A DNA stretch of 64,000 bases from the NCBI GenBank assembly GCA_020639095.1, contig JACKHH010000005.1, positions 56,574 through 120,573 of the forward strand, written 5' to 3'. The first letter of the stretch is position 1. Each line of letters begins with the position of its first letter. This DNA comes from Phycisphaerales bacterium (GTDB taxonomy: Bacteria; Planctomycetota; Phycisphaerae; UBA1845). The translations under genes and the position numbers were made by a program. Positions 57,996-62,976 of the stretch are shown here, in pieces. The notes under the pieces were generated by a model. That model saw only the letters and a program-made list of their open reading frames with translations. It was not told where the DNA came from and ran no database searches.

Positions 57996-58238
57996 CGAAC
58001 AACGGCTTGAACCGCCAAGACTCCAAGACGCCAAGGACAGATGGTGTCTTGGTGACGAGTGACGAGTGACGAGTGACGAAGGCGAGACGCCGGCCTGAAC
58101 TCGCGACGTGCGACTTTTGACCTTCGACTTGCAACCTTTGACTTGCAACCCGTGATCTTCGATCAGCGACTTATCACCCAACAATGTTGTTCTTGGAGCC
58201 TTGGCGCCTTGGCGGTTCAATCCCGCAGTTAATCGTCC

Positions 58239-58634
58239 ATGAAAGAAAAATCCGAGTCGATTGCTGAGATCCGCGTGCGGTATGCCGAGTGCGACCCGAT
58301 GGGGTTGTTGCACCACGCGAAGTATTTTGAGTACCTGGAACTCGCGCGTACGGAACTCCTGCGGCAGCAGGGGATGAGTTACCGCGAGTGCGAGGAGCGG
58401 GGCGTGTACTTCGTCGTCGCCCGCTTCGAGATCCGCTACAAAGCCCCCATCCACTACGACGACGTGGTCACGATCCACACCACGGTCGACCGCATCACCC
58501 GCACCCGCGTAGACCACAGCTACCGCATGAGCGTGGGCAAAGTCCTCTGCACGGAAGCCAACTCCACCCTAGCCTGCGTAAGCCAAGAAGGCCGCCCAAT
58601 CCTCATGCCGGACAATCTGTGGCCAAACACGTAA
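58239..58634 (+). CDS. Acyl-CoA thioesterase, 4HBT/YbgC family
   Basis: The sequence VRYAECDPMGLLHHAKYFEYLELAR...YFVVARFEIRYKAP is typical of a hot-dog-fold thioesterase. Confidence 0.75.
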   Translation: MKEKSESIAEIRVRYAECDPMGLLHHAKYFEYLELARTELLRQQGMSYRECEERGVYFVVARFEIRYKAPIHYDDVVTIHTTVDRITRTRVDHSYRMSVGKVLCTEANSTLACVSQEGRPILMPDNLWPNT

Positions 58635-58701
58635 CACAGTACCTCGTGGGTTTTCTGGCGACTGAAGTAATAACAACTTGAACGGTAAGGAAGGTGTCGC
58701 G

Positions 58702-59390
58702 TCATCCCGTGGCGTCTGGTGAATCACGCTCCTGGCGATTGTGACTGAGGCGCTTAGAGATGAGCTCCGCCACTGCATCTGGGGTTCTTGTGCCAACATC
58801 GACATAACCATCGGTGGAGTAAAATCCAGGGATTTCGCAATCGTCGAACCGAAACGGCATGATCGAGCTCCCACGGCGTTTCTTGATGATGTCGAGTAGC
58901 GCCCGCCATTCCATTCTGCACCAGTCCTTGCGCTCGTAATCTGCGCATAGGAATACGACAACTAACTCGGACCTGTCGTGGTAGATCGATTGCAGGTAGG
59001 GTAGGAGGTCGATGCGAGCCAGTCGGTGCTCAAAGCGGCGATCGTAGAATACGTTCTCAGGCTTAAGGAATCGTTGCAGCGCTCTGTCGACTTCTTCCAC
59101 GAATTCTCTCTTTTCGCCAGGAAACGAAAGTGCGACGGCGAACTCGAAACCTCGCGATGTCGCCGCTTTGCTATCCGACTCGAGTAGAACCGTACCTGGT
59201 GGTTTGACACCTCCGCTGCCATCAGGACCTCCCGCGACAAGTGAGAATATGTGGTAGTCGACACCTGGTACTCTTGTTTCCTCCTCTGTGCCGTCTGGCA
59301 AGTATCTGCACTCAGTTGCGACCGTTCCTTCAAAATCCTGTTTGGCCAGTTCCCCTTCAGATGTCAGCCGTAATTCTATGAAATTGCCTA
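58702..59390 (-). pseudogene. C-terminal fragment of an IS-disrupted gene encoding a TIR-domain protein
   Basis: TIR-like core ALSFPGEKREFVEEV...VFYDRRFEHRLARIDLLPYL...ELVVVFLCADYERKDWCRMEW. On the minus strand, the reading frame is open from the IS5 boundary (59388) through to the stop at 58702. Confidence 0.65.
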
Positions 59391-60224
59391 GAACCTATCC
59401 CAGAACCTCTTTGAGTAGTAGTAATGTGCAGCCGAGATGAAGGAAGCCTTGGAACATCATAGTCGATTTCTCCCAGCGGATGCACAGCCGACGGTAGTGC
59501 TGAATCCATGCAATCGTGCGCTCCACCGTCCAGCGCCGTTTGTACCTGCGCAGTGCGCGGCTGTCCTGGGTCTTGTGTTTCTTCTTGCGGTTGCTTCGGT
59601 GCGGGGAGATCAACTCGATCCCCTGCGCATCCAACTCGGCATCGAGCGCGTCGCTGTCATAAGCCTTGTCACCAACGATGCGCTCGGGCGTTTCTTCGGT
59701 GAGCATGAAGTTGAACAGCCGCTGCACCAATTGGGATTCGTGCGGGCTGGCGGAAGTCGTGTCGACGGCGACCGGCAACCCCTTGGCATCGACCAAAACC
59801 ATTATTTTTACGCCTTTTCCTGCTTTCGTGCTGCCGATGCCATCACCGCCACCACGCGCCTTGCTGAAGGTGCCGTCGATATGACATTCATACAATCGAA
59901 AGCCGTCGCGCTCTTCAACTACACGACCGGCATCGCGCATGATGTTCTCGAAGACGCGACCCTCGACCCAGCGTTTGAACCAACGATGAACCGAACTCTT
60001 CGAGCCGAATCGCTTGGGGAGGTCTTTCCACTTCGCACCGTTGTCGAGAATCCAGAAGATACCTTGAACGGCATTGCGTTTGTCCACTGGTGGTCGTCCG
60101 CCCTTGGGGCTGGGCGTGTGATCGGGAATCCGTTCCACCAACCAGTCCAACTGTTCGTCCGTGAGTTTAAGCATGGCCACTTATAACATGACCATAATGG
60201 AAAACCAAGTAATGGGATAGGTTC
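59391..60224. mobile_element. IS5-family insertion sequence (about 834 bp) with terminal inverted repeats and a 2-bp TA target-site duplication
   Basis: Left end GAACCTATCCCA (59391-) and right end TGGGATAGGTTC (-60224) are inverted repeats. TA at 59389-59390 is duplicated at 60225-60226. A single DDE transposase ORF lies between them. Confidence 0.8.
59395..60180 (-). CDS. IS5-family DDE transposase
   Basis: 261 aa with the N-terminal HTH-like LTDEQLDWLVERIP and DDE-region sequence typical of the IS5/IS427 group. Confidence 0.85.
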   Translation of the reverse strand: MAMLKLTDEQLDWLVERIPDHTPSPKGGRPPVDKRNAVQGIFWILDNGAKWKDLPKRFGSKSSVHRWFKRWVEGRVFENIMRDAGRVVEERDGFRLYECHIDGTFSKARGGGDGIGSTKAGKGVKIMVLVDAKGLPVAVDTTSASPHESQLVQRLFNFMLTEETPERIVGDKAYDSDALDAELDAQGIELISPHRSNRKKKHKTQDSRALRRYKRRWTVERTIAWIQHYRRLCIRWEKSTMMFQGFLHLGCTLLLLKEVLG

Positions 60225-60226
60225 TA

Positions 60227-60536
60227 ATCTAAGATGTACCTTTGTATTCTGAAGCCCATTGATTCCAAGAAAATCGTTGACCTTTTGTCCGAGCACTCGC
60301 CCGAAATCGCCGGACACACGCCATACGGTATGGATGCACTCATTCCTGTCGTCGAGTGTAATTGTGACCGGCAGCCGCGCTTCGACAAACCCGCCCTTTA
60401 CCAGACGATCAATCGCTTTTTCATGAGTATTTGTTAGTCGATCCCATGCTAGTGGAGCCCAAGTACTTGGAAGCGTGAGTATCCAATAGCAAACCGCTCG
60501 TTCAAAAGGCGAAACATTTACCGGATCTTGAGCCAT
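60227..60536 (-). pseudogene. N-terminal fragment (103 codons) of the IS-disrupted TIR-domain gene
   Basis: In-frame with the 58702-59390 fragment once the IS and one TA copy are removed. The bridging codon TTA is reconstituted. Lies in a lower-GC patch (60227-60600). Confidence 0.6.
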
Positions 60537-60663
60537 AGCGCGACGGGATACTCCATGCTGAAGCTTTCGTCAAGCCAGCTTCATGGCACTCAATTGTCGC
60601 GCGCGATGCTGCGCCGCGGGCGGTGGAGATGCACAGTAATGGTCGATTGAGGTGGTGTGCTCG

Positions 60664-61302
60664 TCAGATCGTAATCGGCCGACCCGCCTTGATGTCTTCG
60701 ATCAGCTTCTGCACCTGCGGCCACTGGTCGGCGTAGGGGGCGACCAGGAAGGTGCGGAGCTTTTCCGCATCGAAGACCTCGAGCATCACCAACTGCGCGA
60801 AATCTGACACGTCTTGCAGGCGGCGCTGGGCGCGTTCTATGTTGATCATCGAGACGTACTTGGCAGCCGCGAGCGCTTCGGGGCTGGGGATCGCTCGCTC
60901 GTGATTGAGGATTTCCTTGAGCACTTCGTTGCTGCGGGCATCGAGGACGTCGAGCGCAAATCCCGGAAAACGCAATGCGGCGCCAAGGTTGTCGTGCTCG
61001 GCTTGGTGGTCCTTGGCCCATTTGCGGATTCGGACGAACGTCTGGCCACTGACAAGATAGTCTGTGTCCTCCGTGAATCGTGGCTTCGTGTAGTGCGCGA
61101 GTGCCTTGGCACCGATGAGGACGTGCTTGCCAGATTCGATCAACTCCACCAATTCATTACGTTCGGGCATTCGCTCTTTTTCCTCGCGCGCCGCGTATAC
61201 ACGTTCGACCATGGCTGAGACCATCTGGTCGGACGAGCTGGCTTGGGGACTTGGCCTGATCACGTTCCTATTGTACCCGATAGTGCGTGATCGCGCTTGC
61301 AC
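60664..61302 (-). CDS. Putative nucleotidyltransferase, AbiEii/DUF1814-like (abortive-infection / toxin-antitoxin-type)
   Basis: Motif HVLIGAKALAHYTKPRFTEDTDYLV resembles the GG.AL..y...R.S.DIDF nucleotidyltransferase signature of AbiEii-type proteins. Adjacent to the TIR gene remnant. Assignment is tentative. Confidence 0.4.
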   Translation of the reverse strand: MQARSRTIGYNRNVIRPSPQASSSDQMVSAMVERVYAAREEKERMPERNELVELIESGKHVLIGAKALAHYTKPRFTEDTDYLVSGQTFVRIRKWAKDHQAEHDNLGAALRFPGFALDVLDARSNEVLKEILNHERAIPSPEALAAAKYVSMINIERAQRRLQDVSDFAQLVMLEVFDAEKLRTFLVAPYADQWPQVQKLIEDIKAGRPITI

Positions 61303-61494
61303 TTCGTGACTTCCGTTCCGGACATCCGGACACTGAGTGCGTCGCCCGGTATCTGAGGATTTCTGGCTCGTGATTCACCAGATTTGCGGGTTTCTCGGCC
61401 TGCACTGCTCGACAGTTCCGGCACAGCGTGCTACGATATTTAAAAATAGTGACACGCGTCGTGTGATGCACGATATACCTTGAGGGCACAACCA

Positions 61495-62976
61495 ATGCTT
61501 CGTGTGTGGAAACTCTGCCTTGTCGGTCTTGCAATCGCCTGTTGCCCGGCTCTGGGGCATGAGATTGGTGGGGCGCCTGCCGTTGTGATTGATACCGATT
61601 TGGGGATCGATGATGCCGTGACTTTGGCGGCGGTATTGCAGAGTCCTGATTTTAATGTCGTCGGGGTTGTGGCCAGCGTGGGGGTGGCGGATGCCGAGAG
61701 CGGGGTGCGGCACCTGGAGCGGTTGCTGGATCGCTTCAACCGTGGCGACGTGCCGCTGTACGCACCCGCCAGTCGTGTTGGTCTGCCGGTCCCGCCGTTT
61801 CGATCGTTCGCACAGGCGGCATGGGACGAGGTGTTGCCGGGCGATGTTCCCGCGCGACACGTAGCATTCGATCCCCGCGCGTTTGCGCCGCGGACCGGCA
61901 AGGTCACCGTGCTTGCACTCGGGCCGCTCACCAACGTGGCGGCTGCCCTGACGGCTGAGCCCGAACTTGCCGAACGCATCGAGCGCATCGTGGTGGCTGG
62001 CGCGCCTGAGGGATGGAATTGCCAATTCGATCCCGACGCCTATCGTGCGGTGGTCGCATCAGGCGTCCCGGTCGTACACATCGAAGCCGGTGACTTCGGA
62101 CACAAGCCACTCGACTGGAGCGAAGGCGCCCTGGCAGGGCAGAAGCCGACGTCCATCGGCGCCAACTTCGTCCGCGATCTGCTCAGCGGCCCCGGCGTCC
62201 GCGATCACTATCTGACGGGCCTGGATCACCTGGGCGACGAACTTGCGCTGCTCTATCTCGTCGACCACGATGTCTTCAAACCAGTGGCCGACGCGAATCC
62301 GCCCGCATTCGTTCCCGTGAACGACACCTTCCCAGCCGAGGCGCTCCGCCGCTGCATCGAACGAGGTCGGCAACGCAAGGCGCGCGTCGTCTTCAGCGAG
62401 CACGCAGTCCCCGACATGATGCTTCAGCCGGACATCGTCGAACGGCGTGCACGTATCCTCGCGGCAAACGGTCCGGACGAGTGGTTTGCGCAGCTCCAGA
62501 TGAACGAACTGCACGACCACCTCGGTGCGTATTCGGTCATCGGCGTGAAGATGGGCCTGCGTGCGGCGGAGCTGCTCAATGCACCGCCACACAGCATCCG
62601 CGTGACGTCCTACGCGCCGCCCGCTCCGCCGGTGAGCTGCATCAATGACGGCATCATCGTCTCAACCGGCGCGACGCCGGGCAGGGCACTTTTCACGGCA
62701 GAGCCGAGCACCGACGGTCCGCTGCGTGTCGCGTTCGAGTACAACGACCGGCGGATCGTCCTCGCGCTCAAACCGGAATACGTCGGGAAGATCCGCGAGC
62801 AGATCAAAGCGCTTCTCGCCAAATACACGCTCGAAGACGCCGAGTACTGGTCCGGCGTGCGGCGCGCGGGCCTCGACATTTGGGAGAAGTGGCACCGCCG
62901 CGACCTCTTCAACGTCGTCGCGGTCGAGAATGTCGCAGGGCAAACATCGGCTGATCAGGCCGATCAACCCATGTAA
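61495..62976 (+). CDS. Secreted fusion protein: inosine-uridine-preferring nucleoside hydrolase domain plus C-terminal FmdE-like domain
   Basis: ATG at 61495 preceded by GAGGG. Signal MLRVWKLCLVGLAIACCPALG. IUNH aspartate cluster VVIDTDLGIDDAVTLAA. C-terminal HLGAYSVIGVKMGLRAAELL resembles the FmdE/FwdE family. Confidence 0.65.
   Translation: MLRVWKLCLVGLAIACCPALGHEIGGAPAVVIDTDLGIDDAVTLAAVLQSPDFNVVGVVASVGVADAESGVRHLERLLDRFNRGDVPLYAPASRVGLPVPPFRSFAQAAWDEVLPGDVPARHVAFDPRAFAPRTGKVTVLALGPLTNVAAALTAEPELAERIERIVVAGAPEGWNCQFDPDAYRAVVASGVPVVHIEAGDFGHKPLDWSEGALAGQKPTSIGANFVRDLLSGPGVRDHYLTGLDHLGDELALLYLVDHDVFKPVADANPPAFVPVNDTFPAEALRRCIERGRQRKARVVFSEHAVPDMMLQPDIVERRARILAANGPDEWFAQLQMNELHDHLGAYSVIGVKMGLRAAELLNAPPHSIRVTSYAPPAPPVSCINDGIIVSTGATPGRALFTAEPSTDGPLRVAFEYNDRRIVLALKPEYVGKIREQIKALLAKYTLEDAEYWSGVRRAGLDIWEKWHRRDLFNVVAVENVAGQTSADQADQPM

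What the first reader, a model, noticed from the sequence alone, without database searches (positions are those of the whole stretch)
58702..61302. Decayed defence islet: a TIR-domain gene split cleanly by an IS5 insertion, next to an AbiEii-like nucleotidyltransferase, in a low-GC patch
Removing the IS (59391-60224) and one copy of the TA duplication joins the 60227-60536 fragment in frame with the 58702-59390 TIR fragment. Codon phase is preserved and the bridging TTA is restored. This reconstructs a roughly 330-aa protein with an unknown N-terminal domain plus a TIR-like domain. Immediately upstream, 60664-61302 encodes a protein with an AbiEii/DUF1814-type nucleotidyltransferase motif. The 60227-60600 stretch is visibly AT-richer than the surrounding genome, consistent with horizontally acquired anti-phage genes, one of which has been recently inactivated by the IS.
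Basis: partly seen in the sequence, partly recalled or inferred. Interest (0 to 1): 0.7.

Follow-up and report, generated by a model that had tools for sequence, protein, structure and literature searches.

The report
TIR immune-type gene split by IS5
A single foreign gene in a Phycisphaerales genome, encoding an undescribed N-terminal domain fused to a TIR (NAD-cleaving type) domain, was cut cleanly in two by an IS5-family mobile element. The neighbouring nucleotidyltransferase gene is an unrelated resident gene, so this is one ordinary broken gene rather than a two-gene defence islet.

Summary
An 834-bp IS5-family element (59391-60224) has perfect 12-bp inverted repeats, an intact 261-aa transposase and a TA target duplication. 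It interrupts a minus-strand gene.

Removing 836 bp restores codon TTA (Leu104) and a 332-aa ORF. Intact 340- and 345-aa homologues (59% and 52% identity) align without gaps across the junction.

- **N-terminus:** residues ~5-175 form an unannotated module. About 37 true representative clusters among 1.8 billion carry it. They fuse it to TIR, CHAT protease, a cyclase, or unknown C-termini.
- **Partners:** no partner gene is conserved.
- **Composition:** only this gene is compositionally foreign (GC3 0.43-0.56 against 0.69-0.82 for host genes).

The upstream ORF does have a MenT1/AbiEii-like nucleotidyltransferase fold with the catalytic residues conserved. It nevertheless fails the Pfam threshold, has host-like GC3 and has no antitoxin. 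In four other lineages it sits alone among housekeeping genes, never beside a TIR gene.

The "islet" is therefore not supported. The best reading is a recently inactivated, horizontally acquired, single-protein sensor-TIR effector. A defence role is inferred, not shown. Interest is modest.

The parts
60227..60536 (-). 5' fragment of the split gene. It holds codons 1-103 plus the first base of codon 104, which is the first part of the N-terminal module.
   Evidence: The ATG at 60536 matches the start of the homologues (MAQDPVNVSPFER against MSEVNLTPFEQ and MGTVQVTPFER). GC is 0.484 and GC3 0.43. phmmer against 1.8 billion representatives gave 40 hits.
60225..60226 (.). Right copy of the TA target-site duplication.
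   Evidence: Only removal of the IS plus one TA restores the frame.
59391..60224 (-). IS5-family insertion sequence, 834 bp. It lies in the same orientation as the interrupted gene.
   Evidence: Perfect 12-bp inverted repeats at 59391-59402 and 60213-60224. There is a single copy in the window. Related elements (70-85% identity) with the same 25-bp terminus occur in 5 metagenome contigs, three of them flanked by TA.
59395..60180 (-). Intact transposase ORF of 261 aa. It starts with GTG, and its TAG stop lies inside the left inverted repeat.
   Evidence: NCBIfam NF033580 transpos_IS5_3 at E 1.9e-60, 204.6 bits against a cut-off of 110. Pfam DUF4096 at E 1.4e-20 and DDE_Tnp_1 at E 3.1e-19. Start and stop codons checked.
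59389..59390 (.). Left copy of the TA target-site duplication. It also forms bases 2-3 of the restored codon 104 (TTA).
58702..59388 (-). 3' fragment of the split gene: codons 105-332 plus the TGA stop. It holds the rest of the N-module (to about aa 175, 59176-59388), a Gly/Pro-rich linker and the TIR domain.
   Evidence: GC is 0.534 and GC3 0.56.
58723..59142 (-). TIR domain, aa 187-326. The putative catalytic Glu264 is encoded at 58909-58911 in the motif KDWCRMEW.
60664..61302 (-). Neighbouring MenT/AbiEii-like nucleotidyltransferase ORF, identical to MCB9849796.1 (H6817_03745). Its real start is probably 61224 or 61170. It is listed because the finding includes it, but the evidence says it is not part of the TIR element.
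   Evidence: It is 100% identical to P0121. The AlphaFold model has pLDDT 90.7. The top structural hit is MenT1, 8an4, at E 3.1e-5. Pfam AbiEii is below cut-off. GC3 is host-like at 0.74. Homologues are solitary in housekeeping contexts.

Best explanation
Window 58702-60536 (minus strand) is one horizontally acquired gene for a 332-aa single-polypeptide sensor-effector protein. An undescribed ~170-aa N-terminal module is joined by a Gly/Pro-rich linker to a C-terminal TIR domain. An 834-bp IS5-family element has inactivated the gene by inserting at a TA inside codon 104, within the N-terminal module.

Shown:
- the IS anatomy;
- the exact in-frame restoration;
- intact full-length homologues;
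- the TIR fold with an invariant WCxxE glutamate;
- the foreign base composition of this gene only;
- the absence of any conserved neighbour;
- re-use of the N-module with other effector-type domains (CHAT protease, nucleotide cyclase, other TIRs, and PADLOC candidate families PDC-S54 and PDC-S66).

Inferred: in the intact protein the N-module acts as the trigger-sensing or assembly module. Activation brings TIR domains together so that Glu264 cleaves NAD+, which causes NAD+ depletion and growth arrest of an infected cell (abortive infection). This is how other bacterial TIR effectors work.

The insertion is evolutionarily recent. Both gene halves are free of stops and frameshifts, the target duplication and inverted repeats are perfect, and the transposase ORF is intact.

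The upstream MenT-like nucleotidyltransferase is a resident, vertically inherited, orphan gene. It merely happens to lie next to the insertion point of the foreign gene.

The confidence of 0.6 is for the whole statement, including the inferred defence/NADase mechanism. The structural part (one IS-inactivated N-module-TIR gene, with the nucleotidyltransferase unlinked) I hold at about 0.95.
For: - IS and junction.
- Transposase family.
- Intact homologues P0001 and P0002, gapless across the junction.
- The N-module spans the junction in more than 30 proteins.
- N-module distribution and fusion partners: searches (40 representatives; CHAT x3, TIR_2 x2, guanylate cyclase x1), and (PADLOC PDC-S54, PDC-S66, chat, SAVED_CHAT).
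- No shared neighbours among six loci.
- Composition: TIR fragments have GC3 0.43 and 0.56 against host genes at 0.69-0.82.
- Some homologues lie in mobile or defence-like surroundings. P0001 is near an OLD-type AAA_15/AAA_21-TOPRIM gene. P0182 is next to a caspase gene and DUF932.
- Nucleotidyltransferase independence.
Against: - No PADLOC or NCBIfam model matches the reconstructed protein or its intact homologues, even at E <= 1.
- The window neighbours are housekeeping genes (SMC, a thioesterase, a nucleoside hydrolase fusion), not defence genes.
- P0002 also sits among housekeeping genes.
- The N-module model is only moderately confident (pLDDT 45-87). It has no recognisable fold or sequence relative in Pfam or the PDB, so its sensor role is pure inference.
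- NADase activity is inferred from one conserved motif. Some TIR domains are scaffolds or signal synthases.
- No IS-free allele closer than 59% identity was found, so 'recent' rests only on the absence of secondary lesions.
Confidence: 0.6

Rival explanations
1. The TIR gene and the upstream AbiEii-like nucleotidyltransferase form one horizontally acquired two-gene anti-phage islet, one member of which has been knocked out.
For: The genes are adjacent on the same strand, 127 bp apart. The nucleotidyltransferase has a MenT1/AbiEii-type fold with T/D/K/D catalytic residues conserved. AbiEii-family proteins are known abortive-infection and toxin proteins (PMC7450476, PMC10435456).
Against: - The nucleotidyltransferase has host-like GC (0.59) and GC3 (0.74), whereas the TIR gene is foreign.
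- Nucleotidyltransferase homologues at 43-76% identity lie singly among housekeeping genes in four different contexts, without TIR and without an antitoxin.
- TIR homologues have no nucleotidyltransferase neighbour. tblastn of the nucleotidyltransferase against L001-L006 found nothing.
- No neighbour is shared among the TIR/N-module loci.
- There is no PADLOC hit.
Confidence: 0.04
2. The intact protein is not an NAD-depleting abortive-infection effector. It may instead be a TIR signal synthase, a scaffold, or a regulator of NAD metabolism with a non-immune role, possibly with a nucleic-acid-binding N-module.
For: No known defence model matches it. P0002 and the window copy sit in housekeeping neighbourhoods. 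The top structural matches include non-catalytic adaptor TIRs such as MyD88 and TIRAP. The N-module begins with helices followed by a beta-hairpin. Several N-module proteins carry weak C-terminal HTH matches.
Against: - The catalytic-type WCxxE glutamate is invariant across 35 homologues.
- No ThsA-like or other receptor gene is conserved nearby that could read a signal.
- The same N-module is fused to CHAT proteases, a cyclase and PADLOC candidate-defence domains. That pattern is typical of conflict systems.
- The gene is patchy, foreign in composition and repeatedly decayed (this window; L016). This fits a dispensable accessory immune gene better than a core regulator.
Confidence: 0.2
3. The insertion did not simply kill the gene. 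Read-through from the co-oriented transposase gene, or initiation at the in-frame TTG at 59301, yields a 199-aa TIR-only protein that lacks the regulatory N-module and retains an altered activity.
For: The IS is in the same orientation as the gene. The transposase stop lies 4 nt from the IS end, so transcription can continue into the 3' fragment. An ORF at 58702-59301 (TTG start, 199 aa) contains the whole TIR domain. Stand-alone TIR_2 proteins of ~200 aa are common among the homologues. GenBank appears to annotate two CDS between the thioesterase and the nucleotidyltransferase (accession numbering).
Against: No promoter-like or terminator-like feature was found that bears on this. A TTG start without evidence of translation is weak. 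An unregulated TIR NADase would probably be toxic and selected against. This exact 199-aa product is not in the 15-billion-protein collection.
Confidence: 0.08

Closest known systems
Bacterial TIR-domain NADase effectors with fused sensor domains (e.g. AbTir, SpbK, TIR-SAVED/Cap, TIR-STING, TIR-APAZ of SPARTA, TIR-NLR/Avs-like proteins)
   Different: The N-terminal ~170-aa module matches no Pfam, NCBIfam, PADLOC or PDB sequence. No SAVED, STING, APAZ, STAND NTPase or Argonaute partner is present. No PADLOC TIR model (ThsB, SAVED_TIR and others) matches this protein or its intact homologues. Activity is untested.
Thoeris (ThsB TIR + ThsA)
   Same: A TIR domain with a conserved catalytic-type glutamate.
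   Different: No ThsA (SIR2/SLOG or Macro) gene lies next to this gene or any homologue examined. PADLOC ThsB models do not match.
IS5-family insertion sequences (NCBIfam transpos_IS5_3; small ~0.8-kb single-ORF members that duplicate TA or TNA)
   Same: 834 bp with one DDE transposase of 261 aa (DUF4096 + DDE_Tnp_1). NF033580 scores 204.6 bits. It has 12-bp perfect inverted repeats and a 2-bp TA duplication.
   Different: No identical copy was found elsewhere. The nearest relatives in metagenomes are 70-85% identical and share the 25-bp terminus. Subgroup assignment (IS427- or ISL2-like) rests on my knowledge of ISfinder conventions and was not tested.
MenT1 (Rv0078A) / AbiEii / DUF1814 nucleotidyltransferase toxins (comparison for the neighbouring ORF only)
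   Same: It is the best structural match (Foldseek E 3.1e-5, about 20% identity). The motifs align: 'IGAKALAxYxKPRFTEDTDYLV' with MenT1 'VGGFAVSARSEPRFTRDVDIVV', and 'RRLQDVSDF' with 'RRPQDRSDL'. The counterparts of MenT1 T39, D41, K137 and D152 (PMC11375011) are T51 and K122 (invariant), D53 and D141 (each conserved in at least 90% of sequences), with the invariant D138 as the alternative counterpart of D152.
   Different: It falls below the Pfam AbiEii gathering score (16.5 against 22.5 bits). TM-score is only about 0.5. There is no upstream MenA/AbiEi antitoxin gene in the window or in four homologous loci. It carries a family-specific conserved two-helix N-terminal extension. It has host-like composition and solitary housekeeping contexts.

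Membership tests
TIR domain (Pfam PF13676 TIR_2) | Sequence match above the curated gathering score | tested here: met
   45.9 bits against a cut-off of 28, E 9.6e-12, aa 189-313 covering profile positions 1-121 of 122.
TIR domain (Pfam PF13676 TIR_2) | Flavodoxin-like TIR fold | tested here: met
Catalytic (NADase-type) TIR | Conserved catalytic glutamate in the alphaC WxxxE / WCxxE motif | tested here: met
   The motif is KDWCRMEW. E264 is invariant in 8 and in 35 homologues. Equivalence to the plant 'WCLDEL' and SARM1 glutamate comes from established knowledge, not from a residue-level structural superposition done here.
Catalytic (NADase-type) TIR | NAD+ cleavage activity | not testable with these tools
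   This needs an enzyme assay.
Thoeris | ThsB-type TIR encoded next to a ThsA (SIR2/SLOG or Macro) effector | tested here: not met
   No such neighbour lies in the window or in L001, L005 or L016. There is no PADLOC ThsB hit.
Known or candidate anti-phage systems (PADLOC-DB v2) | Match to any system model | tested here: not met
   There are 0 families at E <= 1 for the reconstructed protein, P0001, P0002 and the nucleotidyltransferase. Only other proteins that share the N-module hit candidate families through their own C-terminal domains.
IS5 family insertion sequence | DDE transposase of the IS5 type | tested here: met
   NF033580 at 204.6 bits against a cut-off of 110. DUF4096 plus DDE_Tnp_1.
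IS5 family insertion sequence | Terminal inverted repeats and a short target-site duplication | tested here: met
   12/12 inverted repeats and TA on both sides. The frame is restored only by removing the IS plus one TA.
AbiEii / DUF1814 / MenT nucleotidyltransferase toxin (neighbour ORF) | Pfam PF08843 match above the gathering score | tested here: not met
   16.5 bits against 22.5. 15 of 35 family members give sub-threshold hits, the best at E 1.8e-4.
AbiEii / DUF1814 / MenT nucleotidyltransferase toxin (neighbour ORF) | MenT-like nucleotidyltransferase fold with the T/S-x-D ... K ... D catalytic set | tested here: met
   Foldseek's top hit is MenT1, 8an4, at E 3.1e-5 and TM ~0.5. T51 and K122 are invariant, D53 and D141 are conserved in at least 90% of sequences, and D138 is invariant. 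The counterparts were assigned from the motif-level HMM alignment and the residues named in PMC11375011.
AbiEii / DUF1814 / MenT nucleotidyltransferase toxin (neighbour ORF) | Cognate antitoxin (AbiEi/MenA) gene immediately upstream | tested here: not met
   The upstream gene is a divergent IU_nuc_hydro-FmdE gene. Homologues in L007-L015 are solitary.

The most novel reading that the evidence does not exclude
The ~170-aa N-terminal module (conserved P10, W26, G49, G76, R111-L-T113, G116) may be a previously undescribed sensor or assembly domain centred on Planctomycetota. Evolution would then have swapped it among different cell-killing or signalling effectors: TIR, CHAT/caspase-like protease, nucleotide cyclase, and PDC-S54/S66-like domains. 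That would define a new family of single-protein immune sensors, and the window would hold a freshly IS-killed member.
Probability: 0.35. Interest if true: 0.55.

Novelty: new variant of a known kind. Interest (0 to 1): 0.3.

Why it matters
The IS-split TIR gene is an ordinary example of accessory-gene turnover. A foreign gene was acquired and then knocked out by a mobile element. It mainly matters for annotation, because GenBank appears to record fragments rather than a pseudogene.

The part worth remembering is the N-terminal module. It is absent from Pfam, NCBIfam, PADLOC and the PDB. It is rare, with about 37 true representative clusters among 1.8 billion. It appears in front of several different effector-type domains, including TIR, CHAT and a cyclase.

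If it proves to be a trigger-sensing domain, it would add a new sensor to the catalogue of modular bacterial immune proteins, in a phylum (Planctomycetota) whose phage defence is almost unexplored.

The analysis also removes a false lead. The neighbouring MenT-like nucleotidyltransferase is a resident orphan gene, not a defence partner.

Tried and rejected
- **PADLOC and NCBIfam** scans of the reconstructed protein, P0001, P0002 and the nucleotidyltransferase gave no hits.
- **Single-sequence and profile searches of PDB sequences** gave only noise for the TIR protein and the N-module. The nucleotidyltransferase profile gave a marginal MenT1 hit at E 0.13, which the fold search later confirmed.
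The single-protein scan of genome contigs found only two loci and not the source genome.
- **Search for an IS-free allele** using a 26-mer next to the junction in metagenome contigs gave 0 hits. The closest intact protein in 5.8 billion is only 59% identical.
- **Exact look-ups.** P0121's contig is not on record. The transposase and the 199-aa TIR fragment are not in the collection.
- **All-against-all comparison** of ORFs within 4 kb of six N-module/TIR loci found no shared neighbour.
- **Promoter and terminator scan** of 58500-61600 gave nothing above shuffled expectation.
- **A winged-helix reading of the N-module** was considered, based on 'RLVKGGFVEARL' followed by a beta-hairpin. I rejected it as unproven. 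The model has only two preceding helices and moderate confidence.
Full report
**1. Observation**

An 834-bp element occupies 59391-60224. It has perfect 12-bp terminal inverted repeats, GAACCTATCCCA, and a TA dinucleotide on each side (59389-90 and 60225-26).

Seven excisions were tried. Only those removing 836 bp (the IS plus one TA) fuse the minus-strand ORF fragment 60536->60227 to 59390->58702. The product is a continuous 332-codon frame that ends at a TGA (58702-58704). Removing 834, 835 or 837 bp gives immediate stops. The bridging codon is T (60227) plus TA (59390-59389), which reads TTA = Leu104.

**2. The IS**

Its single ORF (59395-60180, minus strand, 261 aa) starts with GTG, and its TAG stop lies inside the left inverted repeat. 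It matches NCBIfam NF033580 'IS5 family transposase' at 204.6 bits against a cut-off of 110. It also matches Pfam DUF4096 plus DDE_Tnp_1.

It is the only copy in the window. Five metagenome contigs carry the identical 25-bp terminus on elements that are 70-85% identical. Three of the five are flanked by TA. It therefore belongs to a real, dispersed IS lineage with a TA target preference. The IS lies in the same orientation as the gene it interrupts.

**3. The reconstruction is a real gene**

A search of 5.8 billion proteins found two intact full-length relatives. P0001 is 340 aa, 59% identical over 97% of the query, from a Planctomycetes MAG. P0002 is 345 aa and 52% identical. Both align to the reconstructed protein without a gap across residues 100-110. 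No closer intact allele exists in that database. A 26-mer next to the junction has no match in the metagenome collection.

**4. C-terminal domain**

- Pfam TIR_2 matches aa 189-313 at E 9.6e-12, above the gathering score.
- An AlphaFold model built on 35 homologues has block-mean pLDDT 77-98 across aa 187-326, 83 or higher in all but one 10-residue block.
- Foldseek finds the MyD88, AbTir and RUN1 TIR domains at E ~1e-4 and TM ~0.7.
- The motif KDWCRMEW contains Glu264, which is invariant in all aligned homologues.

From established knowledge of plant 'WCLDEL' and SARM1 TIRs, this is the position of the catalytic glutamate. The domain is therefore of the catalytic type. The activity itself is inferred.

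**5. N-terminal module**

A filter-only phmmer search used the 103-aa 5' fragment against 1.84 billion cluster representatives. It returned 40 proteins, 14 of them at E <= 1e-10. Three are spurious repeat proteins.

Re-searching with residues 1-185 shows that homology runs continuously to residue ~125 in all true hits, and to ~175 in about half. The IS therefore cuts through a conserved module rather than between domains.

The alignment has five invariant positions (W26, G49, G76, R111, G116) and three near-invariant ones (P10, L112, T113). A 'GGPDGxGG' linker follows.

The module has no Pfam, NCBIfam or PADLOC match and no relative among PDB sequences. Its AlphaFold confidence is only moderate.

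Proteins that carry the module end in different domains:
- TIR_2 in 2 representatives, in addition to this clade;
- CHAT protease in 3;
- a class III nucleotide cyclase in 1;
- domains matching PADLOC candidate families PDC-S54 (2) and PDC-S66 (1);
- unknown C-termini in most others.

One named member comes from Tepidisphaeraceae. This 'one N-module, many effectors' pattern is what modular conflict and immune proteins show. That is circumstantial evidence.

**6. Neighbourhoods**

P0001 lies near an OLD-type AAA_15/AAA_21-TOPRIM gene and a HARE-HTH gene. P0002 lies among housekeeping genes. A 47%-identical copy in a Planctomycetales MAG (L016) is itself frameshifted within the TIR domain and truncated. 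An N-module-CHAT protein sits beside a caspase gene and DUF932. An N-module-TIR protein sits beside carB.

An all-against-all comparison of ORFs within 4 kb of six such loci found no shared neighbour. The family therefore behaves as a stand-alone, patchily distributed and frequently decaying accessory gene.

**7. Composition**

Window GC is 0.61. The two gene fragments have GC 0.484 and 0.534, and GC3 0.43 and 0.56. Eleven host genes range from 0.69 to 0.82 in GC3. The IS is intermediate (GC3 0.69). The foreign patch is the TIR gene only.

**8. The neighbouring ORF (60664-61302)**

It is identical to MCB9849796.1 (H6817_03745) from a Phycisphaerales MAG, on a 152-kb contig.

Evidence that it is a MenT/AbiEii-superfamily nucleotidyltransferase:
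- Pfam AbiEii is sub-threshold at 16.5 against 22.5 bits. 15 of 35 relatives also give weak hits.
- A family profile finds MenT1 (8an4) at E 0.13, with convincing motif alignments.
- The AlphaFold model has pLDDT 90.7. Its best structural match is MenT1, at Foldseek E 3.1e-5, TM ~0.5 and ~20% identity.
- MenT1's conserved residues T39, D41, K137 and D152 (PMC11375011) correspond to T51 and K122 (invariant), D53 and D141 (conserved in at least 90% of sequences), with the invariant D138 as the alternative counterpart of D152.

Evidence that it is not part of the TIR element:
- Its GC3 is 0.74, like the host.
- No antitoxin gene precedes it. The upstream gene is a divergent IU_nuc_hydro-FmdE fusion.
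- Homologues of 43-76% identity are solitary genes flanked by purA, rpsS16/trmD, pgpA or rhamnosidase genes in four different lineages, never by TIR genes.

It is a resident orphan gene of Planctomycetota and is not linked to the TIR gene.

**9. Mechanism**

Shown:
- a foreign single gene encoding an N-module, a linker and a catalytic-type TIR domain;
- disruption by an intact IS5-family element at a TA in codon 104;
- no secondary lesions.

Inferred: in the intact state the N-module senses a trigger or mediates assembly. TIR domains then oligomerise, and Glu264-dependent NAD+ cleavage arrests the cell, as in abortive infection.

I put about 0.95 on 'IS-inactivated TIR gene'. I put about 0.55-0.6 on 'anti-phage NADase effector'.

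Alternatives are a signalling or regulatory TIR (~0.2), a residual TIR-only product expressed by read-through from the co-oriented transposase (~0.08), and the two-gene islet (~0.04).

**10. Verdict**

IS disruption of an accessory TIR gene is ordinary. The only novel element is the unannotated N-terminal module shared with other effector types. That makes this a new variant of the known 'sensor-TIR single-protein' kind, in an under-studied phylum. Interest is 0.3.

Noticed in passing
L016 8001-8928 (uncultured Planctomycetales MAG, CAYUQT010000003.1): A 47%-identical homologue of the N-module-TIR protein is itself broken. There is a frameshift between residues 225 and 231 (frame +3 to +1), a degenerate 'FFAGKNPE' in place of 'SFPGEKRE', and loss of the C-terminal helix. 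It is either a second independent decay of this gene family or an assembly error.
   Followed up: partly
window 60664-61302 (-) and loci L007-L015: The MenT1-like nucleotidyltransferase family (about 45 members at E <= 0.001 in the word-filtered search, no Pfam) is always a solitary gene among housekeeping genes, with no antitoxin. It carries a conserved two-helix N-terminal extension of about 45 aa ('..EKExMPxRxEL..'). This could be an orphan, non-toxin nucleotidyltransferase, or one with a cis-acting inhibitory helix like the MenA1 N-terminal helix.
   Followed up: partly
window 61480-62976 (+): A 498-aa ORF fuses an inosine-uridine nucleoside hydrolase domain (E 1e-28) to a C-terminal FmdE domain (E 2e-12), preceded by a signal-peptide-like N-terminus. 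This is an unusual architecture. An IU_nuc_hydro gene also lies two genes from the nucleotidyltransferase homologue in L011.
   Followed up: no
window 58040-58230: The intergenic region between smc and the thioesterase gene is full of short direct repeats: TGACGAG x4 at ~58053-58080, 'gacttgcaacc' x2 at ~58126-58150, and 'gccttggcg' x2 at ~58200-58217.
   Followed up: no
L020-L024 (JGI metagenome contigs): Five contigs carry IS elements with the identical 25-bp terminus but only 70-85% identity over the rest. L021 280-1109 is a complete 830-bp relative. Three of the five are flanked by TA. This points to a diverse IS lineage with conserved ends.
   Followed up: partly
L001 947-2797 and 11883-12419; L019 1280-2305 and 4937-5707: Intact relatives of the N-module proteins sit near an OLD-family AAA_15/AAA_21-TOPRIM gene and a HARE-HTH gene (L001), or beside a Peptidase_C14 caspase and DUF932 (L019). 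These are mobile- or defence-island-like surroundings, unlike the window.
   Followed up: no
window 59919-60536 (-): Translation of the 5' gene fragment runs on into the IS for a further 101 codons (a 205-aa chimeric ORF), overlapping the transposase start. Transcription from the TIR-gene promoter would therefore also drive the co-oriented transposase gene.
   Followed up: no
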